This document shows positions 18,835-58,298 of a stretch of 64,000 nt of DNA, piece after piece; position 1 is the stretch's first letter; every line of letters begins with the position of its first letter. Under the pieces are notes generated by a model. The model was not told the DNA's origin. It was given only the letters and a program-made list of their open reading frames with translations, and did no database searches. Both the position numbers and the translations under genes were made by a program. Source of the stretch: Naegleria gruberi (taxonomy: Eukaryota); assembly GCA_000004985.1 (NCBI GenBank), contig GG738897.1, one strand, 5' to 3'.

Positions 18835-19668
18835 ATGAAGAGAAAGGGAGTCATGACTATTGGTGATTTGCTGAAAGCCAAACACAATGATCAAAAGCCA
18901 GAGCTGTCAATCCAAGAACCAAACAAGAAGAAACAAAAGATTATTGGCCGAACTCTTGGATCATTGACAGAAGAATCAAAACTTGTAACAATTCAACCAA
19001 GCAACAGCAAAGACAAAACACAACATCAATATAAAACTGAAATGCTTATCAATGATGAAAATGGAGCCCAAGTTTCATTCATTTCGAATTTTGTCTCGAA
19101 ACCAGACTCGAAAGTACTCTTCAACAAGATTCTCTCCACTTGCACTTGGAAAACCAAAACTTATAATTATGGAGGGAAGGACGTGATATCACCTCGAGAA
19201 TTTTGTGGCATTTCTTCTCAGAGTGAATGGAGCAAAATACCAGAGCTTATCTCTCTCAAGGAACGAATTGAAAAGTTCACAAATCACACCTTCACTTATT
19301 GTTTCATTAACAAGTACAAGGATGGAAATGATTCAATATATTGGCATTCAGATAAAGAGAAGGGACTCAAGAAGGGATGTCCAATCGTATCGATTTCTCT
19401 TGGTAGGTAAATCAATTATTGGCTTACTTGACATTACTTGAATTATTCATTTTCAACAATAGGCCAAGAAAGGGATTTTCAATTTAGACCAAAAATATCT
19501 AAGAATTCCAAGCAACAGAAGGATGGAAACATCATTGAAAAGAACCTTCCCGATGGTTCAATGGTTGTTATGAATTATGAAACTCAAGAATACTATGAAC
19601 ACTCCTTACCAAAAAGAAGAAATATTCACAACATTCGTCTGAATCTCACATTTCGAAATTACGTATAA
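18835..19668 (+). CDS. AlkB-family 2OG-Fe(II) dioxygenase (ALKBH2/3-like DNA/RNA demethylase). Two exons: 18835-19402 and 19463-19668.
   Basis: ATG at 18835. HxD motif in 'IYWHSDKEKGL'. Second His in 'YYEHSLPKRR'. C-terminal Arg motif 'RLNLTFR'. Intron GTAGGT (19403) ... tAG (19462), 60 nt, phase-consistent. Confidence 0.7.
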
Positions 19669-20171: not shown

Positions 20172-23010
20172 ATGACTAGGGTACATCCAATGGTTCCTCA
20201 GGGTTCTGATAAAGAGGTAACTGAATTACGCCACTCTTTCGACACACCAATTTCTAATGTGAGGAATATTCCACTTAGAGTGCTTCACGACTCGATGGAA
20301 GTTAAGGAAAACAGCAACAACCTACAACCACACACTTCGTTTCTTCACGAGGATTACACATCTCAACATGATTTTCAATCAGGATCAAATTTGAATGTAT
20401 CTGGTAGGAATGGAGGCAAATTGAGTGGAGTAAAGAAGAAATATTCAATGAAACATCACTCTACTCATGAAACGAGTCATCTTAATATATCGATCAAAAC
20501 ATGTCTGATTGCATTGATTGCCTTTCTTGAAATTTTAACAGTCCTAACCTTGTCTAGTATATGGATTTCGTGTTTCCTTCCCTCCATGCTCAAGTGGGGG
20601 TCTTCAGTAAGAGAAAAGAGTTTTGATAACATTATACAATTCACAAGGTCCACATTGAAGGAACTGGCTCTGGTGACAGAAACAGAGAGGGAGCTGTTAT
20701 CAGATAACTTTGACCCTTACAATACACAGCTTGTTGAAAAACACATGTTCAGACTATTCAAAAATGAGCTAGTGAGACATCCATCTCTACCTGTAACCTT
20801 GTATTTAGGTGACCACACACGATACAATTACGGTGTTATGCAAATGGATGAAAATACTTTGGCAGCTTTTAACATGGATTCATACTACTATTGTCAAGAT
20901 TACCTGAATAATGATTTGTGCGTTAGAAACAACACACCTGATGAGGTATTGGGTGAGTTTGATATGACACCAATTTTGGAGGCTGCAAGTCAAGCACCTG
21001 GCGGGTCACGATTCACATTGAGTTATGCTGACATTTCATTGCCTAGTATCACATTCATCACATTACTATCAATGGTGAAAAATTCTACAAATCCTTCTGA
21101 TTTTATCTTTTGGATTGGCTACGATGTCTCTGTTCAGTCTTTTTCAATATATCTGAACTCTATCACAAAGGATACTCCTGGAGCAATTGCCTTTACTATA
21201 GAAGTTATGACTGATTATCTTATATCGAGTAAGTCTCATCATTGAATTTTAACTGTTTCTGTAACTATTAAATAGATTACAATCCAGATGTATCTGTAGC
21301 ATCTTGGGATGAAAATGAAGAGGAAACAAGAGTGACAGCTCGTACAGTAACTGATAATGGAACCAATCTCATTGCTGAACATGTTTACAAACTGTATCCA
21401 AATTTAACCGATATAACTTGTAATGAGAAAATATTGATGGAAGTAGATGGATACTATATTTCCATGTATCGATTATGTACTAATGAGAACATTGATTGGC
21501 TTATTGTTTTTGCTGAACCAACAATGAATTTTATGGAAGCAATCATTGTTGCTGTAAGCGCTGCTCTAGGTTCAAGTCTAGTTATCATTATTATTAGTAT
21601 TGGTATCGGAGTTTACATTGCCTTCAAGATTATTCAGCCATTCTATGATTTGATATTTAACTTTAGTGAGGTTTCAGAAATGAAACTTGAAGGACTTTCT
21701 TTTGAGACGAGCGTTTTCAGAGAAGTTCAAATTCTTCAGGGACATTTTAAGGGGATGGTTGAAAAAATCAAACTCTATCGTTGGTAAGTTGGACGAGGTT
21801 TCACAATCAAATTCTAATTTTCATGTTAGCTTTATTCCAAGCCATTTAATTTCAAAGATTGATGGAGAAGGAGAGGATACAGAAAAGAGCAGAAAATCAA
21901 AAGAATCACAAAGTAAGAATAGCCTTTCTTTCGAGAAAAAGATTGAAACTTCAGACAGTTTTACAAGTATCGTCAGTATAAAGAAACCTCAGGTAGATAC
22001 AATGGCAAGGTTTGCTCTTCATTTGGAGAGTAGAAGAGTTACCTTTGCATGTCTTCACATAGAGGGAATGGGTCGCTGTATCACAACAAGCTCCTACACA
22101 GAAATAGTCAGCATTTTGAGTGAAATATTCAAGTATGTGTACGATATTAGTAAATTGAGTGGAGGTTCTGTTGGAAACTTTGAAAGCGAAACTGTATTGA
22201 TTTCATTCAATTCCAATGCAGAGACGTCTGCAGCAGAGAAGAAGGCAGTAGTGTTTGCATCACAAACAGTTAAAAAGCTAAATGGGTTGAGTACCCTTAA
22301 GAAATCAATCAGTGGAAGGTCGTCGGAAAAGCCAATTGTTTTCAGAGCATCTGTCCTGTCTCAATATTGTTGTTGCGGTAACTTGGGAACGAATGAATTT
22401 AAGAATTTCACGATTGTGGGAAGTTTCAAACAAAACTTGATCATGATGATTGAGCTGGCCCTTCGATTGAATATTGAACTTGTTGTAACAGAAGATATTC
22501 GTACCAAGACTAATATTGTCTTCCAACACCGATACGTAGATACATTACAATTCTTAACTGAGACGCAGTATGGACTTCCTGAGCTAGATATATCAATATT
22601 CAAAAATTGGGTTTTCTCTCAAGCTGTTGAATATGGCAACTTGAATGTTTCGATGGAAACAGCCAACAATTCCTTCCTTAAACAAAACACTGATGTCAAC
22701 ATTTACGAATATGGAGAATTTATGGAGATAAAAGATGATGGTAAGTTCAATAGATTCTCAATCAAGTTATTTATTTGGCAACATTAAAGAATGGATGTAC
22801 GAATTGGAGGAAAAGAAGAAGAGAAATGAATGGCAGCCATACATTAATGCAACAAGTTTGTATTGGGAAAGGAAGTGTGATGAAGCAATTGCAATTCTGA
22901 ATGAGTTCTTGGATAAATCAATAGAGAATGGAAAGGCTGACTTGCCAACCATTAATTTACTGGAAAAGATTAAGAGACAAATTGATAAGGAACAAGAAAG
23001 CACACAATAA
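20172..23010 (+). CDS. Two-TM receptor-type protein with a class III nucleotidyl-cyclase-like, possibly catalytically degenerate, cytoplasmic domain. Four exons: 20172-21228, 21276-21783, 21830-22740, 22790-23010.
   Basis: ATG at 20172. TM1 'CLIALIAFLEILTVLTLSSIWISCF'. About 300-aa extracytoplasmic region. TM2 'AIIVAVSAALGSSLVIIIISIGIGVYIAF'. Then a cyclase-homology-like segment ('VTFACLHIEGMG...GGSVGNFESETVLISFNS'). Three phase-consistent introns of 47, 46 and 49 nt, each GTAAGT...AG. The canonical metal-binding Asp residues appear substituted. Confidence 0.5.
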
Positions 23011-23776: not shown

Positions 23777-25564
23777 ATGAAACAGATGAAGAGATCCATT
23801 GTACAATTAGCCAAGGCTCAAACTAAGTCTACCACTGCTGCTGCCTTCTCCAACACCTTTGTTAATCAACAACGTACCAAGAAGGTTGATGTTAAGGTCA
23901 AGAAACTTTTCATTGGTGGTGAATTTGTTGAAGGAAAGGAAGGAAAGAAATTCTCTGTATACAATCCAGCAACTGAAGAAGAAATTTGTCAAATTTCCGA
24001 AGCCACTGCTGCTGATGTTGATGATGCAGTTCGTGTTGCTAGAAATACCTTTGAAAACGTCTGGAGAAATTATGCACCATCCCAACGTGTTCGTCTCATG
24101 AATAAGTGGGCTGATTTGATTGAAAGAGATGCTGATTATATTGCTGATTTAGAATGTATTGATAATGGTAAGCCACGTGATATGGTCAGAAATGTTGACA
24201 TTTACTTGGTTCTCCAATGTATTAGATACTATGCTGGTTGGGCTGATAAGATTAACGGTAAGACCATTCCAGTTGACTCTGACTTCTTTGCCTACACTCA
24301 AAGAGAACCAGTTGGTGTTTGTGGTCAAATTGTTCCATGGAATTTCCCATTGGTTTGTTTCTTTTTAATTATTTTCTAATTATTTTAATTTTTTAATTTA
24401 ATTTTTTTTTTAAATATTTTAATATTTTAATTAAATTTATCAAGTTGATGGCTGTAAGTAGAATAGTAAAGAATTATGAAATAATTAACACAAATTCTAT
24501 AGACTTGGAAGTGGGCACCATGTTTGGCAACTGGTAACGTTTCCATTTTGAAGACTGCTGAACAAACTCCATTGTCTGCATTGTACGTTGCTAAATTGGC
24601 TCATGAAGCTGGATTCCCACCAGGAGTCATTCAAGTTTTGAGTGGTTTTGGTGAAACTGTTGGTAATGCATTGACTCATCACATGGATGTTGATAAGATT
24701 TCATTCACTGGTAGCACTGAAGTTGGTAAAAAGATTCTTGGAGCTTCTTCCAAGACTAATTTGAAGAGAGTTACTCTTGAACTCGGTGGTAAATCAGCAT
24801 TGATTGTCATGGGTGATGTTAAGGATCGTGCCACTCTTGAAAAGGCTGTCAATATTGCCAATCAAGGTACCTTCTTCAATCAAGGTCAAGTTTGTACTTG
24901 TTCATCTCGTGTCTTTGTTGCCTCCAATATTTATGAAGATTTCTTGAAGATTTCTAAGGAACTTGCTGAAAAGAGAGTTGTTGGTAACCCATTCGATTCC
25001 AAGACTGAACAAGGTGCTCAAGTCAGTGAAGAACAATTCAACAAGATTATGAGCTACATTGAATATGGTAAGAATAATACTAGACTTGTCACTGGTGGTG
25101 AACGTGCCCATGCCAAGGGTTACTTTGTTAAGCCAACTGTCTTTGCTGATGTTGAAGATACTCATAAGATTGCTCAAGAAGAAATCTTTGGACCAGTTAT
25201 GAGTGTTTTGAAGTTTGATCATGATAATGTTGAAGATGCTATCAGAAGAGCCAACAAGTCTGAATATGGTTTGGCTGCTGGTGTCATTACTCATGATCTC
25301 AACCAAGCTCACAGAGTTGTAAGTTTATTATTTTTAAATTTTTTCTAATTTTCACTAATTATCATTCATTTACAGACATCGGGTCTTAGAGCCGGAACTA
25401 TTTGGGTAAACACATGGAATGCTTTCTTCAGTAATATTGAATTCGGTGGTTACAAGATGTCTGGTCAAGGTAGAGATTTGGGTGAACATGCTTTGGATGA
25501 ATATACTGAAAATAAGTCTGTCATTACTCATATCCCAGGTTTGAAACGTCCATACAAGTTTTAA
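23777..25564 (+). CDS. Aldehyde dehydrogenase (ALDH1/2 family) with predicted mitochondrial presequence. Three exons: 23777-24352, 24503-25318, 25376-25564.
   Basis: ATG at 23777. Basic/hydroxylated N-terminal presequence. Conserved 'VGVCGQIVPWNFPL' | 'TWKWAPCLATGN'. Catalytic 'ELGGKS', 'GQVCTCSSR' (active-site Cys) and 'EEIFGPV'. Introns GTTTGT...AG (150 nt) and GTAAGT...AG (57 nt). Confidence 0.85.
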
Positions 25565-25694: not shown

Positions 25695-28600
25695 ATGCGA
25701 ACACAAATACTCTGTATTTTTATTATTAATGCCATTCTCCTTGCCATCACAACACAAACAACTGTCCATTCACAAAATCCTCCTGAAAATCCTTCATGTA
25801 CTTCACAATTTCTTGTGAATAATGAAATTTCAAAAGCTATGGAATATTTACAGTTCAATATGTTCATGATGATGACTTCGGAATTTGATGATCATCAACA
25901 GGATTTTTCATCGTCACAAGCGAGAAATGTGAAGAATTGCAGTTTGGCAAATCCGTGTGAAAATTTAACACAAATTCTCTCAGTACTGAACAAGACACTT
26001 GTGGAAGATAATTTTAACTTTTATAATCGGTCAACTGAGAGGCTGGTAGTTTTGAATATTAATTTATTGAATGATATTTTGGATACAACTGAACATTTTA
26101 TTGAAACTCCAATAATTTCTGGTTTGAATTATATTTTCAAATTTAAGAGCGTATCAGATTCGGATAGAAATTTGATTCAATTGAAATGGAAGGGATCTTA
26201 TGATCGATCCTATGTATTGACAAGACCAGATATTAAGTGGTTTTACTTTGAGAATGTGACACTTAATTTATTTAGATTGAATAATACGGATGTTGCAAAT
26301 CTTGGTTTTTGTAATTGCTTAATTGTGGATACGTGGTTGAATTTTGTAACGAATAGAGATTTTTATATTGAAAAGAGTCAATTGATTAGATCAATTATTT
26401 ATGCAACTACAAATTTGTGGTTCTATGACAGATCAGAAACCATTAAATATGGAGAATATTATGTGACAGGTTTGACAGCTATTTATAATAATAGTGAAAT
26501 TCATGAAACACGACTCAGATGGACAGTCAGCAGTGTTACAAATCTAATAATTGAAAATTCATTATTTGAAGATTTTTTGGTGGAAATGACCTTCAAACAA
26601 GTGACAAATGTTCTCATTCGAAACTCCACCTTTATTCGTGATTATTTGGATTATAAGGAAGAGTCAGTGAATGCACTTCAAGGAAATTCATTTCGTGTTA
26701 TTAATTGCACCTTTCAACATGCTTATTCATTCCTTTTTGTGAGATCTTATATTTTTGTTTCAATTGATAGCTCAATTGTTTCTAATAATCAGCTGATGAA
26801 GGAGAATTTAATTAGTGTTTTCTATGGGATTATTGCAATTCAGAGTTGTATCACTGTTATGGTTTCCAATTCTCAATTTTCAAACAATGAAGGTTATGAA
26901 AGAGCTTCTGCACTTTACTTGTCAGATGTCAATGTATTCCATGTGAGAAATTGCCAGTTCACTAACAATTCTGCCTCCAGCATCTTCTCAAATAGTTATC
27001 CTAATAGAATGTTTGATAATGATAAGTCTTATTACTGGTATACTGTTTCCAATTGCAAATTCGAAGGAAATACCTGTAACAAGGAAGGTTGTGGAATTTA
27101 CATTTCTGACTCAATTGACCTGACAATTCAAAACAATATTTTCCTGAATAACACAGCTCAATATGGTGGAGCAGCTCTCTTTATCAAAATTGGAGCCAGA
27201 GCTGTAATTTTAAATAATTTATTTATTGGAAATAAGGTACTTTACAATAATTTATTACGACAACCTGCTAGTACTTTCTATTATGGAGGCGGAGGAGCTG
27301 TTTCTATAATTACTACTCAATTGGGACTTTCAGAAAGCAAACTATTGGCAAATACTTTCATTAATAACGAAGCTCTCTATGGTGGTTCATTATTTTTTGT
27401 TAGGGAATCTTTGGTGGAAATTTCCAATTCAACATTTATTGGAAATAAGGCAAAGAGAGGAGGAGCCATGTTTTACTATTCACCAAGTGTAGAACAAACT
27501 GAAATATTTGATAATGTGTTTAAGGAAAATGTTGCAGAAATTGGAAATGATTTATTGACAAGTGTCGTTGCTTTGGATTGGGATAATAGTACTGTACATC
27601 ATGTCAAACCGGGTGATGCTATTTCATTGGATGTAAAGACATTCGAATTGGGTGGATTACTTATTCCAACAAATACTGAAAATTTCACAGTCTTTACTGA
27701 TAACCCAAGTGTTTATTTGGATTTTTTACAGAACGAAACCTCATTTACAATATCCATGTATTTAATGGGTGATGTTACACCAAATTCCTATGGAAATTTC
27801 ACACTATTCCTTGATAGCAATCCAGCAATTACCTTTTTTCATTATTCCATCAATTCATGTGGGGAAGGAAATGAATTGAGAGTAATTGGTAAGAATCAGA
27901 TGGCCGTTTTGAAATGTGTGCCATCTCCTGCTAGCCTACTACCTCTAATTCTATCAGTTTCCATTCCAGTTGGTGTTTTTATTGCCATAGTGAGTGTTTT
28001 TATTGGAATAATTTTGGGCATGGTTGGAATTCCAAAAATTAATAATATAAAACGACGATTGAATCTATTGCAGGAAAAGGAGAGTGCCGAGCAGAGTGTT
28101 GAGCAGAAGATTATTGATAAGAAGGTGGTATTCAATATGAACGATGAAGGTGACTTTAAGGAGCCATTACTGAAAAACTATGAACTGGAAGATCCAATAT
28201 TTCGTTTTATCATTTCTCCAAAGGATATTGACATTGTAAAGAAGGTAGCAGAAGGAGGGTATGTAGTTGTGTGTTTATTGTAACAATTCACTAACAATTT
28301 GATAAGAAATGGAGTGGTTTACAAGGGAACGTGGAAAGGAATTGAAGTTGCCATTAAGACTATTAAGGCAAAGAATGAAAGTAGAGACGATTTTGAGAAT
28401 GAAATTTCACTTCTCGCCTCTATTAGAAATCCACATATTTTGAATTTTTATGGAGTTTGTGTGACGGAGAATGAAACATTTATGATTACAGAGTTTTTGG
28501 AGAATGGAAGTTTGGAGGGGATTATTTATTTGAGTAGGATTGGTCAATTCAAACTCTCATTCCATGAAAAATTGAGAATTTTATATGAAGTAGCTATTGG

Positions 28601-49948: not shown

Positions 49949-52615
49949 ATGAGTTGGGTTCCAAACGAGCAAGGACTTCAACAAGTCATGGAACTTCTTA
50001 TTAACAGTAGGAAGGGAAGTACACAAATTCAAAAGGAATGTACTCTGAAGTTACAACAATTCAACGATAATGTTCACGATTTCAACAATTATTTGGTACA
50101 CATCTTCTCTAAATGTAAAGAAGTTGATCCAGCTGACAGACAAGCAGCTGGTCTTATTTTGAAAGCTAACTTGAAACAAAAGTTGGTTTCTCTCACTGAT
50201 ATTGAAAAGGAACACTTGAGATTATTGTTATTGGAAGCTCTTGGTGATGATATTCCTTTCATTAGATCAACAGCCGGAACTCTTATTGCTTTCATCTTTT
50301 TTTGGGACCAAATTGAAGCTTGGCCACAATGTATTTCACAACTTTTGACTCTTCTTGGTAATAGTAATAATCAACAACTTGTCGATGGTACAATGGCTTG
50401 TTTATCGAAAGTTTGTGAAGATAACTATGCTCAATTTGAGGGCGATTACGCACAACAGCTCACTGTTCTTATTCCAGTTTTGATTAAATTCATGGAATAT
50501 CCAAATGAAGGTATTAGAAAGAATGCTCTCAGCTCAATCCTCCAATTCTTCCAATTGGATCCAGTTCCTACTGCCATTACTGATAATATGGATGCTTACT
50601 TGAGATCTCTTTTCAATATTGCCAATGATAATTCCGTAACTCTTCGTAAATATGCTTGCCGTGCATTTGTCTTGCTTTTGGACATTCCTCACTATTTGAA
50701 ACAAGCCATTTCTACTGTTATTGAATATATGATTCACTGTACAGCCTCTGATGATGAAACCTTGTCATTGGAAGCTTGCGAATTTTGGACTGTTTTACTC
50801 AGTCTTGATCCAAAGAATCCATGTCAACCATTCTATCCAATTCTCCAAAACCATCTCCCTCAACTTGTTCCAGTTTTATTGAGTAAGATGCAATATTCTG
50901 AATTTGAACAAGCTTCACTTTTACACGATTCTGAAAGACCAGACAGAGATTCTGATATTAACCCATCTGTTTACCACATCAAACCAAAAGACTCTCTCGA
51001 AGAAGAATACGACGACGAAGATGATGAAGACTATGAAGATTTTGATGAAGACGATTTTGGTGGTGATAGTGATTGGTCTTTGAGAAAATGCAGTGCTACT
51101 TCATTGGATTTGTTATCTAACGTTTTTGGATCCTCAATTCTTCCATATTTGTTACCTCAAATTGAACAAAAGATGAATGGTGAAGTTCCATGGCCAGTTA
51201 GAGAAAGTGCAATTTTGGCTTTGGGTGCTGTTTCTGATGGATGCATGACTGGAATGTTGCAACATCTTCCAAAGTTGATCCCATATCTTCTTGCTGTTAT
51301 TAATGACGAAAAGCCATTGGTAAGAAATATTACTTGTTGGTCTTTGAGTAGATATGCCAGATGGATTGTTGAACAACCATTGGACAAGTACTTTGAACCA
51401 GTTTTGGCTGCCATCCTCTCTAAAATGTTAGATAACAACAAGTGTGTTCAAGAGGCTGCCAGTTCTGCATTTGCCACTCTTGAAGAAAATGCCAAGACAC
51501 TTGTCATTCCATACTTGAAGCCAATCTTGGAAACTATTGCTAGTGCTTTCCAAATCTATCAAAAGAAGAATATTTTCATTTTGTACGATGCTATTAGAAC
51601 CTTGGCTGACTCTGTAGGCTCTCATTTGAACAAACCAATCTTTATTCAACTTATCATTCCTCCACTCATTACTAAATGGAATAATTTGATGGATGACGAT
51701 AAGGATTTGTTACCCCTTCTTGAATGTTTAACTGGTGTAGCAGCTGCTCTCCAAAATGGTTTCCACTCATTTGCTGAACCAGTTTTCCACAGATGTATCA
51801 AGATTATTCAAACTATCTTTGAAATTGACCAAAAGAGGCCACAAGAAGCTGACAGAGAATTTGTCATTTGTTCTCTTGACCTCATTGGTGGCATTCTTGA
51901 AGGATTAGGTCCAAATGTCAACCAAATTCTTACTACTTCAAAGTTATTGGATGTCTTGTTCATTTGTATTAAGGACAGATTCTCAGACGTCAGACAAAGT
52001 GGTTTGGGTGTAATTGGTGATTTGGCCAAGAATGGTATTGAATACTTAAAGAATGGTCTTCCTCAATTCCTCCCAATTATTATTGCCAACATTAATCCAA
52101 AGGCCCAATCAGTGTGTAACAATGCTTGTTGGTCTTTCGGTGAAATTACTGTAAAGATTGGTCCAGAAATTGCATCCTACGCCACAGAAATCTTCCCAAA
52201 GATGATTCCAATCCTCAATTCTCCATCTACCAACAACTCCCTTGTAGAAAACTTATCTGTTACCATTGGTAGAATTGCATTGGTTTGTCCACAAATTGTT
52301 GCTCCAAATTTACCAGTTATTTGCAAGAATTTGTGCTTGGGATTGAGCAAGGTTACTAATAAGATTGAAAGAGAACATGGTTATGCTGGATTGTGTGCTG
52401 CTATTAAGGCTAATCCTTCAGGAGCAGTTCAACACTTCTCATTCGTTCTCGATACTATTTCAAACTGCACTGATCCAAGCCAAGAGCTCAAGAATGAATT
52501 TGTGCAAATTCTCCAAGGTTTCAAGCAAGGAATGGGTGATCAAGCTTGGATTTCTTACTTGACAAGTATCCCAGAAGATATTACCCTTAAACTCAGACAA
52601 GATTATAACATTTAA
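49949..52615 (+). CDS. Transportin / importin beta-2 (karyopherin beta-2). Single exon, 888 aa.
   Basis: ATG at 49949. N-terminus 'PNEQGLQQVMELLINS...DFNNYLVHIF' closely parallels transportin-1 ('PDEQGLQQILQLLKES...DFNNYLIFVL'). Acidic H8 loop 'EEEYDDEDDEDYEDFDEDDF'. HEAT repeats throughout. Confidence 0.85.
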   Translation: MSWVPNEQGLQQVMELLINSRKGSTQIQKECTLKLQQFNDNVHDFNNYLVHIFSKCKEVDPADRQAAGLILKANLKQKLVSLTDIEKEHLRLLLLEALGDDIPFIRSTAGTLIAFIFFWDQIEAWPQCISQLLTLLGNSNNQQLVDGTMACLSKVCEDNYAQFEGDYAQQLTVLIPVLIKFMEYPNEGIRKNALSSILQFFQLDPVPTAITDNMDAYLRSLFNIANDNSVTLRKYACRAFVLLLDIPHYLKQAISTVIEYMIHCTASDDETLSLEACEFWTVLLSLDPKNPCQPFYPILQNHLPQLVPVLLSKMQYSEFEQASLLHDSERPDRDSDINPSVYHIKPKDSLEEEYDDEDDEDYEDFDEDDFGGDSDWSLRKCSATSLDLLSNVFGSSILPYLLPQIEQKMNGEVPWPVRESAILALGAVSDGCMTGMLQHLPKLIPYLLAVINDEKPLVRNITCWSLSRYARWIVEQPLDKYFEPVLAAILSKMLDNNKCVQEAASSAFATLEENAKTLVIPYLKPILETIASAFQIYQKKNIFILYDAIRTLADSVGSHLNKPIFIQLIIPPLITKWNNLMDDDKDLLPLLECLTGVAAALQNGFHSFAEPVFHRCIKIIQTIFEIDQKRPQEADREFVICSLDLIGGILEGLGPNVNQILTTSKLLDVLFICIKDRFSDVRQSGLGVIGDLAKNGIEYLKNGLPQFLPIIIANINPKAQSVCNNACWSFGEITVKIGPEIASYATEIFPKMIPILNSPSTNNSLVENLSVTIGRIALVCPQIVAPNLPVICKNLCLGLSKVTNKIEREHGYAGLCAAIKANPSGAVQHFSFVLDTISNCTDPSQELKNEFVQILQGFKQGMGDQAWISYLTSIPEDITLKLRQDYNI

Positions 52616-55386: not shown

Positions 55387-58298
55387 TTACAATTCCAGAG
55401 ATTTACCTGTTGATTTCTCCCATTGTTTGTATTGTTTAGTTTTTTGTAATCTGGAGAAAGTATCCGAAATATTCATGAATAATTCTGGCCAAAGTAAGTC
55501 AGTAAGAACTTTGACAGTCACAATAGTTGACACTTCACTCAAAATTGTGTCAATATTCTTGGACATGGCATCAAAACCTCCTTCTTCTTCACTCGATTGA
55601 ATGTAAGTGCTATAACTTGGGAAGATTAACTTGTAGAACTTTTTCTTACAATCAGATGATAAGTTAATTTCATATTCTGAATAATTTCTAATAAAATCTC
55701 GTTCAATTTCTCTCAAATCCTCGACGGTAACGAGTGCATTGTAATTGGTATAGTTGGAAGAGATTGTTCTAACCTTTTCCCAAATGAGAATGTTTTCTGA
55801 GGCAAATTCCTTCTCTGCAAAATTTTTGAGTAAACCATAGAAATATCCATCTGAGATCATTAGGTATTCCAATTCGTTTTCTTGATTTTTACGAAAGGCA
55901 ACTTTCTTTTTGGTAACTTGGGCTGCCTTGGAGTTGAAATCCTCTCCCACAGTTGTTCCATTGAGTTTGGCTCCAGAAATGAAATATCCTGTAGATTCTG
56001 GATTAATTACTGACATGTTACAGTTTCTCAAATTGGTATTGATGAATTTAGTGCCTGTAATTAAACACCTTGAAAATATACATTCAGCCATCGAGGAGTT
56101 ACTGAAATTGGCATTGGATAAAGCAGTATTTGTAAAATCGCTTTGATTCAGAATCGTATTGGAAAAGTTTGATGATGATAAATCCATATTTGAAAAGTTG
56201 AATTGTTTCATTGAGCAACCAGATAAGTCAACTCCAAAGAGAGTTTTGGCACTTCTGAGGAATTCTTCATTGACCTTGGCTCTGTTCATTTTGGCATTCG
56301 AAAGTACACAACCAGTTGACTCCGATGCAATATTGGTCAAGTCGCAACCTTTCAAGTTGGTATTTGTGAAATTAGTATTATCAAATAGTGCTCCTGAAAG
56401 ATTGGCTCCTCCCAAGGAACCACCTGTGAGATTGGCAGAGGTAAAGTTGGTATATCTCAAATCACACAAGGTTAAATTGGCATGTGCAAGATTTGCCTTC
56501 TCAAAGGTACAACCTCTAAGATTGCAACCACTAAAGTTAACCTCTGATAAATTCATTCCACTAAAATCAGAGTCTGTTATTTGGATCTTTCTGATATCCA
56601 AATCTTTGAGTGAGACAAGTTTCAAATCAATGTTTGAAAGTTTCACCTCCAAGTTTTCTCTTCTATGATATTCTATGATATTCTTCAGTTCGTAGTGTTT
56701 GATTCTGCTCTTCTTCTTTTCAATCTCAATACCAAACTTGGTGATACTTTCAGTGAGCAAATCGTTGGATTCTAATTGAGATTTGAGTTTTTCCATGTTG
56801 AAACTTGTGGCTACATCAATCAATAATCTTGCAATGTTTGGATTGACTGATATTTTGCCAAATCTAAGCCAATGGAGAATGAGTAAGAATAATTCAACAT
56901 CACAATCAATAAAGTGTTCCTCATCAAAATCTGTAACTTCTTTGAACATTGAAGCCAATGAGGATGTTGGTTCATATTCTGTATTCAACAATGTTGAAAG
57001 AGCTACATTGATAATCTCACCACCAACATCTAATTTTACACATTGTGAGAATTCTTCTCTTGATGACATGAGAACAATATTTGATATTTTGCCCTCCAAT
57101 TCTCTTGATTGAGATGATAAATATTCCAACTTGGATTCCAACTGTTTGATTGACTGATCAAAAACAACTGCCTTTGTTTGACACGTTGATTCTGATTCAT
57201 TGATTTTCTTCTTGAAATATACATCCACTTCCTCAAGATATGAACTGCATTTGCTTTCCATGTGGTTTTTAAAGAATCCTCTCAGTACATAATTTTCACA
57301 TTTCGAACAACGAACCAACAATCCCTCAATCTGTCTCTTTGTAATATCTGAAATATCTGAAAGATTTTCTCCCAAAATTTCATCCCTCTCACAAATATTA
57401 CACTTCTCCATACATTTTAAACATTCAGAACAGAACATATTTCCACAATTGTTATGAGTTTTGGCTTCCAAATCCAAAACTTGTTTACACGATTGACATT
57501 TCAAATCATTAGAAATGTTGCTCAATTGTGAAACAAACACAAAAGGAGATCCACTGTCTTCACTTGAAGATGACAAAGTAAGAGAATCTCTCATTGAAAT
57601 TCTTTCCTTTACGAAATCTTTCTGCATGAGTGAGTCAACCAGAACAGGAGGTGGTGAATCCCCTCCTATTGTATTTCTAAACATTCTTCTTTGAACCACT
57701 AATATTTAACATCATTAGTTTCGAATAATATAGAACCATGAAAAACACAAAAACAATCATTAGAATTGATATCATCATTTCTTGATTATAATCACTTACC
57801 TTCCTCAAAATCTTCCTTGTCATCTTCCAAACTAATAGGTGAAGATGTATTCGAATGTGTATTTGAACTACTCTTGCCATTCACTTCCATAATACTTTTT
57901 CTAAAATTCTCCTGTTGACTATTCATCACAGCAACTCGTGGAGAAATTGATTTTTCACTATTCGATGAAGTTGATGACAATGACGAAGGCGAAGGAGGAG
58001 TAAATGTTGTCATTCGATGTTTCGCATTATTATTATTCGAAACATTATTTCCAACACTTCCAGTCGTTGCCAATGATGATGCACCCGAGGATGATGAAGA
58101 TGAAGATGATGAATCTAATGTTTGTGTTGTTGTTGCACTAATTGTAGAAGAATTTGAAGAATTTAGATTATTGTTGAATACGACAGCTGTTCTTCCTCTT
58201 CTAACTCTCACAATAGGACGAGTGGGTGAATCTGATGCAGTTGATGGGGAGTTTGTATGGTTGATGGTGCTAGGGGAAGGTGGTGTATTCTTGTCCAT
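55387..58298 (-). CDS. Multidomain signalling protein: Ser/Asn-rich N-terminus, Cys-rich RING/B-box-like zinc-finger region, KCTD/T1-type BTB domain, pentapeptide repeats and a C-terminal RGS domain. Two exons: 58298-57800 and 57698-55387.
   Basis: First ATG at 58298; the track ORF starts at GTG 58310. Intron GTAAGT (57799) ... tAG (57699), 101 nt, phase 1. Zinc-finger region 'CQSCKQVLDLEAKTHNNCGNMFCSECLKCMEKCNIC'. BTB 'VKLDVGGEIINVALSTLLNTEYEPTSSLASMF...FIDCDVELFLLILHWLRFGKI'. Pentapeptide repeats 'ANLSGALFDNTNFTNTNLKGCDLTN...'. RGS signature 'FAEKEFASENILIWEKV'. Confidence 0.65.

What the first reader, a model, noticed from the sequence alone, without database searches (positions are those of the whole stretch)
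20172..23010. Two-TM receptor with a cyclase-homology domain that looks catalytically degenerate
Four exons give a protein with the topology of receptor-type adenylyl/guanylyl cyclases: TM, extracytoplasmic domain, TM, cyclase-like domain. Three 46-49-nt introns are removed. The positions expected for the metal-binding Asp residues read 'FACLHIEGMG' and 'VGNFESE'. The expected forms are 'F[AS]DIVGFT' and 'IGDxY'. This suggests a pseudo-cyclase or regulatory cyclase-homology domain, or a divergent active site.
Basis: partly seen in the sequence, partly recalled or inferred. Interest (0 to 1): 0.55.

Follow-up and report, generated by a model that had tools for sequence, protein, structure and literature searches.

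The report
Naegleria receptor with a dead cyclase domain
This Naegleria gruberi gene encodes a membrane receptor built like a ligand-sensing adenylyl/guanylyl cyclase, but four of the six residues needed for catalysis are replaced, and it belongs to a large, conserved, undescribed family of such probably inactive cyclase receptors in Naegleria and its relatives.

Summary
Four exons (20172-21228, 21276-21783, 21830-22740, 22790-23010, + strand) separated by GTAAGT..AG introns of 47, 46 and 49 nt give an 898-aa protein. Its layout is: cytosolic tail, TM1, about 300-aa extracellular domain, TM2, HAMP-like segment, disordered linker, class III cyclase-homology domain (CHD), and one TPR-like hairpin.

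The window is Naegleria gruberi. Pfam does not detect the CHD, but other tests do: phmmer to CyaB gives E=1.8e-7, the family profile gives 9e-12, and the AlphaFold2 model matches CyaB at Foldseek E=2e-13 (TM 0.80).

The catalytic hexad D-K-D-T-N-R reads H598-N638-E642-T716-N724-M728. Among 39 close representative clusters (Naegleria, Willaertia, metagenomes), the first Asp and the Arg are never present.

A metagenomic orthologue (63% identity, same intron positions) keeps the same six residues. In its CHD core pN is 0.23 against pS 0.73, so the domain is under purifying selection.

The extracellular domain, modelled on a 33%-identical homologue, is a double-Cache sensor.

Best reading: a ligand-sensing receptor pseudo-cyclase that signals through dimerisation or partner binding rather than cNMP synthesis. 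The lack of activity is inferred, not shown. Interest is moderate: a new variant of a known kind.

The parts
20172..23010 (+). Whole gene: 4 exons, 898-aa product plus stop codon
   Evidence: Spliced ORF. Junctions supported by paralogue P0001 and by orthologue L001 with identical intron positions.
21229..21275 (+). Intron 1 (47 nt, GTAAGT..AG)
21784..21829 (+). Intron 2 (46 nt, GTAAGT..AG)
22741..22789 (+). Intron 3 (49 nt, GTAAGT..AG)
20172..20492 (+). N-terminal tail, aa 1-107. Poorly conserved and basic next to TM1, so inferred cytosolic.
   Evidence: 32% identity to the orthologue against 63% overall. The start MTRVHP matches the orthologue's MPKVHP and paralogue P0005's MTRITP.
20493..20576 (+). 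TM1 (about aa 108-135)
   Evidence: Kyte-Doolittle scan. 86% identical in the orthologue.
20577..21529 (+). Extracellular sensor domain, aa 136-437 (spans intron 1). Double-Cache fold by homology. Four Cys (C241, C250, C401, C420) lie at family-conserved columns, and there are 4 N-x-S/T sequons.
   Evidence: The AlphaFold2 model of the equivalent domain of homologue P0002 (33% identical) has pLDDT 92.4. All top Foldseek PDB hits are dCache ligand-binding domains: PctD 9e-9, TlpQ, Tlp3, PctA-C, Mlp24, DctB. Cys and sequon conservation.
21530..21643 (+). TM2 (about aa 438-475)
21644..21863 (+). HAMP-like segment plus the conserved 'YRxFIPxHL' helix, aa 476-533 (spans intron 2)
   Evidence: The family profile aligns end to end with the NarQ HAMP domain (residues 176-228), but only at E=0.17. 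P5, E33, F41, F54, P56 and H58 of the segment are invariant in 23 members. 84% identical in the orthologue.
21864..22004 (+). Ser/Lys/Glu-rich linker, aa 534-580, predicted disordered
   Evidence: pLDDT 56-66 with no secondary structure in the model. Poorly conserved, with indels, in P0001 and the orthologue.
22005..22730 (+). Class III (IIIb-like) cyclase-homology domain, aa 581-822, with a variable insert at aa 768-808
   Evidence: sequence; structure: core pLDDT above 90; CyaB 3r5g E=2.4e-13, TM 0.80. The insert is also present in the orthologue.
22056..22058 (+). H598 (CAC) at the position of metal-binding Asp 1
   Evidence: Alignments to CyaC and CyaB. Never Asp in 39 close clusters. His in the orthologue.
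22176..22178 (+). N638 at the position of the substrate-specifying Lys
22188..22190 (+). E642 (GAA) at the position of metal-binding Asp 2
   Evidence: Family residues here are D17, N8, E7, G5. Glu in the orthologue.
22410..22412 (+). T716, the retained class IIIb-type substrate-pocket Thr
22434..22436 (+). N724, the retained transition-state Asn
   Evidence: N in 35 of 37
22446..22448 (+). M728 at the position of the transition-state Arg
   Evidence: CyaB alignment. L or M in 35 of 37 close clusters, never Arg.
22731..23007 (+). C-terminal 'DEWMYEL' motif plus one TPR-like helical hairpin, aa 823-898 (spans intron 3)
   Evidence: The family profile hits consensus TPR proteins and SRP72 TPR at E 1e-5 to 1e-3. 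E12, W13, W26, A44 and D62 of the segment are invariant in 19 members. Paralogues give weak Pfam TPR hits.

Best explanation
The gene encodes a receptor-type pseudo-cyclase of Naegleria gruberi. Its domain order is that of bacterial-type receptor adenylyl cyclases: cytosolic tail, TM1, extracellular double-Cache ligand-binding domain with two probable disulfides, TM2, HAMP-like transducer, class IIIb cyclase-homology domain. Two things are added: a roughly 45-residue disordered linker in front of the CHD and a single TPR-like hairpin behind it.

The CHD keeps the cyclase fold but has lost four of the six catalytic residues: both metal Asp (to His and Glu), the substrate Lys (to Asn) and the transition-state Arg (to Met).

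Shown here: the gene model, the homology and fold of the CHD, the residue substitutions, their recurrence across a large heterolobosean family, and purifying selection on the domain.

Inferred: (i) the protein cannot make cAMP or cGMP by the two-metal mechanism of class III cyclases. (ii) It still senses an extracellular small molecule through the dCache module. (iii) The signal leaves the protein not as a second messenger but through the CHD acting as a dimerisation or regulatory module, either by pairing with and silencing or tuning catalytically competent paralogues, or by presenting the conserved DEWMYEL/TPR surface to a partner. The closest functional analogy is the degenerate GGDEF/EAL receptors of bacteria.
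For: - **Gene model:**
- **Organism:** the neighbouring transportin ORF is 100% identical to the N. gruberi protein.
- **CHD homology:** phmmer to CyaB 1.8e-7; family profile against PDB 9.2e-12 to 5e-7, class III cyclases only; AlphaFold2 core pLDDT above 90; Foldseek top 50 all class III cyclases, best 2.4e-13 with TM 0.80.
- **Residue mapping:** H598, N638, E642, T716, N724, M728.
- **Family scale:** the exhaustive profile search gives 1572 representative clusters at E<=1e-3 and 67 at <=1e-30. Named members come from N. gruberi, N. fowleri, N. lovaniensis and Willaertia magna.
- **Family-wide loss:** in 39 close clusters Asp1 is Y14, H10, L6, F5 and never D, and Arg is L18, M17 and never R. 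Among the best 150 clusters only 2 of 138 have Asp at the first position.
- **Selection:** orthologue L001 keeps H-N-E-T-N-M and all three intron positions. In the CHD core pN is 0.23 against pS 0.73, the same as the extracellular domain.
- **Sensor fold:** dCache fold of the extracellular domain of a 33%-identical homologue.
- **Ancestral state:** a canonical dCache_1 + Guanylate_cyc protein with D-K-D exists in Willaertia (P0150), so the architecture can plausibly be ancestral. Cache1-HAMP-cyclase proteins close to N. gruberi genes are described in PMC6366073.
- **Established knowledge (not tested here):** both Asp coordinate the two catalytic metal ions in class III cyclases, and mutating either one, or the Arg, reduces activity by orders of magnitude.
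Against: - No activity assay exists.
- His and Glu can both bind metals and are conserved in the one orthologue found. T716 and N724 are retained. The domain is as constrained as a working enzyme would be.
- The output mechanism (heterodimerisation or partner recruitment) has no direct support. No partner was identified and no dimer could be modelled.
- The dCache fold was modelled on a homologue, not on the window protein itself.
- The HAMP assignment is not statistically significant (E=0.17).
- The disordered linker between the HAMP-like segment and the CHD is atypical for helix-coupled signal transmission.
Confidence: 0.62

Rival explanations
1. It is a divergent but still active cyclase. 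H598 and E642 form an alternative metal site (for example Mn2+- or Zn2+-dependent), and other residues replace the Lys and Arg.
For: His and Glu are competent metal ligands, and both are conserved in orthologue L001. T716 and N724 are retained. There is strong purifying selection on the CHD.
Against: Among 39 close paralogue clusters the first position is Y, L or F in 25, which cannot ligate a metal, and the second is N, G, A or Q in 15. No conserved replacement site exists at family level. The Arg position is hydrophobic in all of them. Lys is present in 2 of 40. Pfam's cyclase model does not detect the domain at all.
Confidence: 0.12
2. It is the non-catalytic half of an obligate heterodimeric cyclase, as in mammalian C1/C2 or sGC alpha/beta. 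It supplies part of one composite active site and forms a degenerate regulatory pocket on the other side.
For: Class III domains work as head-to-tail dimers (established knowledge). T716 and N724, two of the four 'C2-side' residues, are conserved family-wide. N. gruberi has many cyclase paralogues (PMC9928731) and experimentally active ones (NgPACs, PMC5608697).
Against: It lacks Lys and Arg on the C2 side and both Asp on the C1 side. With a canonical partner both composite sites would therefore be incomplete, so the predicted effect is inhibition rather than complementation. No complementary partner family (Asp pair kept, K/N/R lost) appeared among the 150 nearest clusters. No paralogue is adjacent in the window.
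Confidence: 0.15
3. It is a decaying gene or an artefact of gene prediction. The 'degenerate' residues would then reflect pseudogenisation or a wrong splice model.
For: No protein from this locus is on record in either protein collection. Pfam finds no domain.
Against: The ORF is intact at 898 aa with three canonical introns. The intron positions and all domains are conserved in an orthologue at 63% identity. pN is far below pS in every structured domain. The AlphaFold2 model of the CHD core is confident. Conserved family motifs are intact.
Confidence: 0.03

Closest known systems
Bacterial-type class IIIb receptor adenylyl cyclases (CyaB of P. aeruginosa, PDB 3r5g; CyaC of Spirulina, 1wc0; dCache-HAMP-cyclases of cyanobacteria; Cache1-HAMP-NCIII proteins of Euglena and Naegleria, PMC6366073)
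   Same: Same domain order (TM, dCache, TM, HAMP-like, CHD) and the same CHD fold (TM 0.80 to CyaB). It has the class IIIb hallmark Thr in the FTxxG motif, and the Asn of the VNxAxR helix is kept.
   Different: Both metal Asp, the substrate Lys and the transition-state Arg are replaced. Pfam PF00211 does not reach any score. A disordered linker of about 45 residues separates the HAMP-like segment from the CHD. A conserved DEWMYEL motif and a single TPR-like hairpin follow the CHD.
Degenerate halves of pseudo-heterodimeric cyclases (mammalian tmAC C1/C2 forskolin site; sGC alpha/beta)
   Same: A CHD that has lost part of the catalytic set yet is conserved and presumably dimerises (from established knowledge of these enzymes; sGC structures appear among the fold hits).
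   Different: Those domains each keep a complementary half-set, so that one composite site is active. This CHD lacks essential residues of both half-sets, and no complementary partner was found.
Degenerate GGDEF/EAL receptors of bacteria (e.g. LapD, PelD): pseudoenzyme output domains behind periplasmic sensor and HAMP modules
   Same: The concept is the same: a nucleotide-cyclase-fold domain that has lost catalysis and is retained behind TM/HAMP modules as a binding or regulatory module. This is an analogy from my own knowledge and was not tested.
   Different: A different family (GGDEF, not CHD), different organisms, and there the ligand (c-di-GMP) is known. No nucleotide binding is shown here.
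Paralogues annotated 'Guanylate cyclase domain-containing protein' in N. lovaniensis and N. fowleri, and 'predicted protein' in N. gruberi (e.g. XP_044550760.1, XP_002679537.1)
   Same: Same family and architecture at 30-35% identity. They share the FEN(D), CGNxGT, FTIxxS...NL and DEWMYEL motifs and the same loss of Asp1 and Arg.
   Different: They are different paralogues. No record for this locus itself was found. The automatic names imply enzyme function, which the residues do not support.

Membership tests
Class III nucleotidyl cyclase catalytic domain (CHD; Pfam PF00211 Guanylate_cyc) | Cyclase-homology fold | tested here: met
   AlphaFold2 core pLDDT above 90. Foldseek PDB top 50 are all class III cyclases; CyaB E=2.4e-13, TM (target) 0.80.
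Class III nucleotidyl cyclase catalytic domain (CHD; Pfam PF00211 Guanylate_cyc) | Significant sequence similarity to family members | tested here: met
   phmmer to CyaB 1.8e-7. Family profile against PDB 9.2e-12. 13 of 50 family members hit PF00211.
Class III nucleotidyl cyclase catalytic domain (CHD; Pfam PF00211 Guanylate_cyc) | Score above Pfam's gathering threshold (21.9 bits) | tested here: not met
   No Pfam hit for the window protein even at E<=10. The nearest paralogues score 14-20.9 bits.
Class III nucleotidyl cyclase catalytic domain (CHD; Pfam PF00211 Guanylate_cyc) | Two metal-binding Asp (FxDIxGFT and FxGD) | tested here: not met
   H598 and E642. The orthologue has the same residues.
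Class III nucleotidyl cyclase catalytic domain (CHD; Pfam PF00211 Guanylate_cyc) | Substrate-specifying Lys (or Glu) plus Asp, Thr or Cys | tested here: not met
   Lys is replaced by N638; the class IIIb-type Thr is kept as T716.
Class III nucleotidyl cyclase catalytic domain (CHD; Pfam PF00211 Guanylate_cyc) | Transition-state Asn and Arg (VNxAxR) | tested here: not met
   N724 is kept; Arg is replaced by M728. L or M, never R, in 37 close clusters.
Class III nucleotidyl cyclase catalytic domain (CHD; Pfam PF00211 Guanylate_cyc) | Conversion of ATP or GTP to cAMP or cGMP | not testable with these tools
   Needs an enzyme assay.
dCache_1 extracellular sensor (PF02743) | Long N-terminal helix followed by membrane-distal and membrane-proximal PDC modules between two TM helices | tested here: met
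   Tested on homologue P0002 (33% identical, aligned over the whole domain): pLDDT 92.4, all top Foldseek hits are dCache ligand-binding domains. For the window protein this is inferred by homology.
dCache_1 extracellular sensor (PF02743) | Pfam profile match | tested here: not met
   No hit for the window protein or its 10 nearest paralogues. Distant family members P0150 and P0126 match below the gathering score.
dCache_1 extracellular sensor (PF02743) | Binding of a small-molecule ligand in the distal module | not testable with these tools
   Pocket motifs were not analysed. Needs ligand screening.
HAMP domain (PF00672) | Two amphipathic helices joined by a connector directly after TM2, with conserved Pro in AS1 and Glu at the start of AS2 | tested here: inconclusive
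   The pattern is present (P5 and E33 invariant). The profile aligns to NarQ HAMP residues 176-228 over 52 positions, but at E=0.17. No Pfam hit.
TPR repeat | 34-residue helix-turn-helix with the TPR consensus | tested here: inconclusive
   One hairpin only. The family profile hits consensus-TPR proteins at 1e-5 to 1e-3, with scores partly inflated by repeats in the targets. Paralogues give sub-threshold Pfam TPR hits.
Pseudoenzyme (pseudo-cyclase) | Homologous to an enzyme family, lacks essential catalytic residues, yet is maintained by selection | tested here: met
   Homology. Four of six catalytic residues lost. pN 0.23 against pS 0.73 in the CHD core versus the orthologue. Family-wide conservation of non-catalytic motifs.
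Pseudoenzyme (pseudo-cyclase) | Demonstrated absence of catalytic activity | not testable with these tools
   Needs an assay.

The most novel reading that the evidence does not exclude
Heterolobosean amoebae (Naegleria, Willaertia) carry a large, anciently diversified clade of receptor pseudo-cyclases. Different extracellular or N-terminal sensors (dCache, NIT, ankyrin) sit in front of a catalytically dead CHD and a DEWMYEL/TPR tail. These would form a signalling system that does not make cyclic nucleotides. It could work by ligand-controlled heterodimerisation that gates active cyclase paralogues, or by using the dead CHD as a nucleotide sensor or scaffold. That would be a eukaryotic counterpart of the degenerate GGDEF/EAL receptors of bacteria. 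It would also mean that a sizeable share of the much-quoted 'cyclase' repertoire of Naegleria is not enzymatic.
Probability: 0.3. Interest if true: 0.65.

Novelty: new variant of a known kind. Interest (0 to 1): 0.45.

Why it matters
Naegleria is often cited for an unusually large repertoire of membrane adenylyl/guanylyl cyclases as environmental sensors (at least 81 in the genus pangenome, PMC9928731). If many of these are catalytically dead receptors, counts of 'cyclases' overstate cNMP-generating capacity, and a different signalling logic has been overlooked, such as dominant-negative or allosteric pairing, or scaffold signalling.

The family offers a natural test case for how class III cyclase domains are reused after losing catalysis. 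It would also add a eukaryotic example of a dCache-type receptor whose ligand is unknown. N. fowleri has members of the family, so surface receptors of a lethal pathogen are involved. Automatic names such as 'Guanylate cyclase domain-containing protein' would need qualification.

Tried and rejected
1. **Pfam on the full protein and on exon 3:** no hit even at E<=10. The homology had to be shown by phmmer or profile searches against PDB and by structure.
2. **Exon translations as fragments aligned to P0001:** MAFFT misplaced exon 1 (A1), so exon 1 was dropped from the profile (A2).
3. **Spliced protein in the restricted tools:** Exon 3 was therefore folded for the CHD, and the extracellular domain was folded from homologue P0002.
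4. **The look-up of encoding contigs for window ORFs, P0174 and P0001:** nothing on record, so the N. gruberi annotation around the gene could not be seen. An exact look-up of the 898-aa model and three alternative starts also found nothing.
5. **Search with the canonical Willaertia dCache-cyclase P0150, to collect canonical Naegleria paralogues:** only cyanobacterial-type relatives at about 25% identity were returned. The planned side-by-side comparison with N. gruberi's own canonical cyclases was not achieved.
6. **afdb50 fold library:** unavailable.
7. **Hidden intron in the aa 768-808 insert:** considered and rejected, because there is no GTAAGT-type donor and the insert is present and in frame in the orthologue.
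8. **Second paralogue or canonical cyclase in the window:** none found. No antisense ORF of 90 aa or more overlaps the gene.
9. **Synteny of the upstream region with L001 by tblastx:** no match.
10. **Literature searches for Naegleria pseudo-cyclases or inactive cyclases:** nothing found.
Full report
**Observation**

Reading frames and GTAAGT donors in 20172-23010 give four exons: 20172-21228, 21276-21783, 21830-22740 and 22790-23010. They are separated by introns of 47, 46 and 49 nt. The spliced ORF is 2697 nt, or 898 aa. Hydrophobic segments lie at about aa 108-135 and 438-475.

The splice model has two independent supports. First, a local alignment with the only hit of the word-index search, the Naegleria gruberi protein P0001 (34% identity, E=1.4e-114), runs without disturbance across all three junctions. 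Second, a 3.6-kb metagenome contig (L001, ENA ERZ929261) carries an orthologue. It has GTAAGT..AG introns of 44, 47 and 43 nt at the same three codon positions, 63% protein identity, and a matching start (MPKVHP against MTRVHP).

No antisense ORF of 90 aa or more overlaps the gene, and there is no second copy in the window.

**Organism and surroundings**

The neighbouring intron-less ORF 49949-52612 is 100% identical over 888 aa to N. gruberi transportin. It is 72-79% identical to other Naegleria and 57% to Willaertia. So the window is N. gruberi nuclear DNA, at 31-37% G+C.

Other large ORFs are ordinary eukaryotic genes: an ABC transporter, a Kelch-BTB protein, a beta-helix protein, a glycosyltransferase, a protein kinase, DUF4209, and a pentapeptide-repeat/BTB/RGS protein. 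None is a cyclase.

**Is the C-terminal domain a cyclase-homology domain?**

Pfam finds nothing in the protein even at E<=10. Other tests are clear:

- phmmer against PDB sequences gives P. aeruginosa CyaB at E=1.8e-7 and Spirulina CyaC at about 0.01.
- A profile of 30 family CHDs (A4) raises this to 9.2e-12 (CyaB), 1.4e-9 (Cya2), 2.3e-8 and 5e-7 (CyaC), followed by photoactivated cyclases. All 14 hits are class III cyclases.
- An AlphaFold2 model of exon 3 (aa 523-825, 50-sequence alignment) has pLDDT above 90 through the core.
- Foldseek against the PDB returns only class III cyclases in the top 50. The best is CyaB at E=2.4e-13, TM-score 0.80 normalised to the target.
- 13 of 50 family members reach PF00211 at E<=0.01. 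The nearest paralogues stay just under the gathering score, for example 20.9 against 21.9 bits.

The refutation criterion 'no significant similarity to class III cyclases' is therefore not met.

**Catalytic residues**

The HMMER alignments to CyaC and CyaB place the six residues as follows:

| Canonical residue | Canonical motif | Window protein |
|---|---|---|
| Metal Asp 1 | FSDIxGFT | H598 |
| Substrate Lys | DKFxGD | N638 |
| Metal Asp 2 | DKFxGD | E642 |
| Thr (class IIIb) | FTxIG | T716 |
| Transition-state Asn | VNxAxR | N724 |
| Transition-state Arg | VNxAxR | M728 |

The roles of these residues are established knowledge of class III cyclases, quoted from memory. Four of the six are lost, so the second refutation criterion ('residues are in fact conserved') is also not met.

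**The family**

An exhaustive profile search of 1.84 billion representative proteins found 1572 clusters at E<=1e-3, 325 at <=1e-10 and 67 at <=1e-30. Named members belong to N. gruberi, N. fowleri, N. lovaniensis and Willaertia magna. The more distant Pharyngomonas member still has Asp at the first metal position. The rest are unnamed metagenome proteins. UniProt's automatic name for several is 'Guanylate cyclase domain-containing protein'.

I aligned the 150 best clusters to a model of the window protein and read off the six positions. In the 39 closest clusters:

- Asp1 is Y14, H10, L6, F5 and four others, never Asp.
- Lys is present in 2 of 40.
- Asp2 is D17, N8, E7, G5.
- Thr or Ser is kept in 31 of 37.
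- Asn is kept in 35 of 37.
- Arg is L18, M17, never Arg.

Over all 150 clusters, Asp1 occurs in 2 of 138. The loss of catalytic residues is thus old and family-wide. The residues that replace the metal ligands are not conserved among paralogues, which argues against a new common metal site.

Other motifs are strongly conserved: RF.L, EG[LF], FEN, FN, CGNxGT, K.FT, S...NL, R[YF][VI]D, DEWMYEL.

**Is the domain still under selection?**

Against orthologue L001 the six positions are identical (H, N, E, T, N, M), and the variable insert aa 768-808 is present in frame.

Nei-Gojobori counts for the CHD core (aa 581-767) give pN=0.23 and pS=0.73. The extracellular domain gives 0.21 and 0.73. The HAMP-like segment gives 0.14 and 0.61. 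The N-terminal tail and the linker are much less constrained. Synonymous sites are close to saturation, so the ratio of about 0.1 is only approximate. The contrast is nevertheless plain: this is a maintained domain, not a decaying one.

**The rest of the protein**

- **Extracellular domain.** I therefore modelled the equivalent domain of the N. lovaniensis paralogue P0002 (33% identical, alignable end to end). The model has pLDDT 92.4 and pTM 0.88. All leading Foldseek hits are double-Cache ligand-binding domains of bacterial chemoreceptors and histidine kinases: PctD 9.3e-9, TlpQ, Tlp3, PctA/B/C, Mlp24, DctB. The window protein's four extracellular Cys (C241, C250, C401, C420) all fall on columns that are Cys in 17-18 of 22 family members. 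There are four N-x-S/T sequons. Both features fit an extracytoplasmic location.
- **After TM2.** The very conserved segment KIIQPF...E.xxLQxxFxxM...YRxFIPxHL aligns over 52 positions with the HAMP domain of NarQ, but only at E=0.17. I call it HAMP-like.
- **Linker.** A Ser/Lys/Glu-rich stretch (aa 534-580) is predicted disordered and is poorly conserved.
- **After the CHD.** The invariant EW of DEWMYEL comes first, then one helix hairpin that matches TPR consensus proteins at 1e-5 to 1e-3.

**Relation to canonical enzymes**

A Willaertia protein in the hit list (P0150) has dCache_1, a 56-bit PF00211 match and the canonical D-K-D. Its proximal Cache/TM/HAMP part aligns to exon 2 of the window gene. 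The Euglena genome paper describes a TM-Cache1-HAMP-cyclase subfamily close to N. gruberi genes (PMC6366073). N. gruberi has experimentally active class III cyclases, the NgPACs (PMC5608697). The genus is credited with at least 81 cyclases (PMC9928731).

The simplest history is duplication of a bacterial-type receptor cyclase followed by loss of catalysis in one expanding branch. Degenerate CHDs also sit behind NIT (N. fowleri P0044) and ankyrin modules.

**Mechanism**

Shown: the architecture, the fold, the missing residues, the family-wide pattern and the purifying selection.

Inferred: without both Asp and the Arg, the two-metal mechanism cannot run. A heterodimer with a complete partner would leave both composite sites incomplete, because this subunit lacks essentials of both half-sets.

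I therefore favour a ligand-sensing receptor whose CHD serves as a dimerisation or regulatory module. It could damp or tune active paralogues, or present the DEWMYEL/TPR surface to a partner. I put this at about 0.6.

The rivals are a divergent active site (about 0.12), a contributing half of a heterodimeric enzyme (about 0.15) and a pseudogene or artefact (about 0.03). Only assays can decide among them.

**Novelty and verdict**

The architecture and the domain family are known. Degenerate CHDs are known as halves of pseudo-heterodimers. I found no paper describing a clade of receptor pseudo-cyclases in Naegleria.

No protein from this locus is on record in the collections searched. I cannot tell whether that reflects a gap in annotation or in the collections.

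I rate it a new variant of a known kind, with interest 0.45.

Noticed in passing
window 20172-23010: No identical or near-identical protein from this locus is on record in the 5.8-billion-cluster collection, the 1.84-billion representative set, or by exact look-up of four start variants. The neighbouring transportin is on record at 100% identity. Either the gene is missing from the N. gruberi gene set or the record is not in these collections.
   Followed up: partly
L001 1-3622 (ENA ERZ929261, metagenome contig): An environmental Naegleria-like organism carries the orthologue: 63% identity, same three intron positions, 34% G+C. Its upstream 900 bases show no tblastx similarity to the window's upstream region.
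   Followed up: partly
window 55387-57699 (-): One 770-aa ORF combines pentapeptide repeats, a BTB_2 (K+-channel tetramerisation-type) domain and a weak RGS match. This is an unusual domain combination.
   Followed up: no
window 25695-28283 (+): An 862-aa intron-less ORF has a right-handed beta-helix / NosD-like region. No exact record was found.
   Followed up: no
P0150 (Willaertia magna KAL9647366.1): The only fully canonical dCache-cyclase near this family has, in the word-index search, only cyanobacterial-type dCache-HAMP-cyclases and histidine kinases as relatives, at about 25% identity. This hints at a bacterial origin of the architecture, or at a contaminant contig.
   Followed up: no
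P0044 (N. fowleri), P0089 (metagenome): Degenerate CHDs of the same wider family sit behind other input modules: a NIT sensor domain and N-terminal ankyrin repeats. Sensor swapping therefore seems to have occurred around a dead CHD.
   Followed up: partly
window 21864-22004 (aa 534-580): A Ser/Lys/Glu-rich, poorly conserved and predicted disordered linker interrupts what in canonical HAMP-cyclases is a continuous helical connection. It could be a phosphorylation target. This is unexplained.
   Followed up: no
window 23777-25348 (+) and 18835-19410 (+): The flanking genes look, by eye, like an intron-containing aldehyde dehydrogenase downstream and a 2OG-Fe(II)/AlkB-like oxygenase fragment upstream (translations). 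They were not tested against any library.
   Followed up: no
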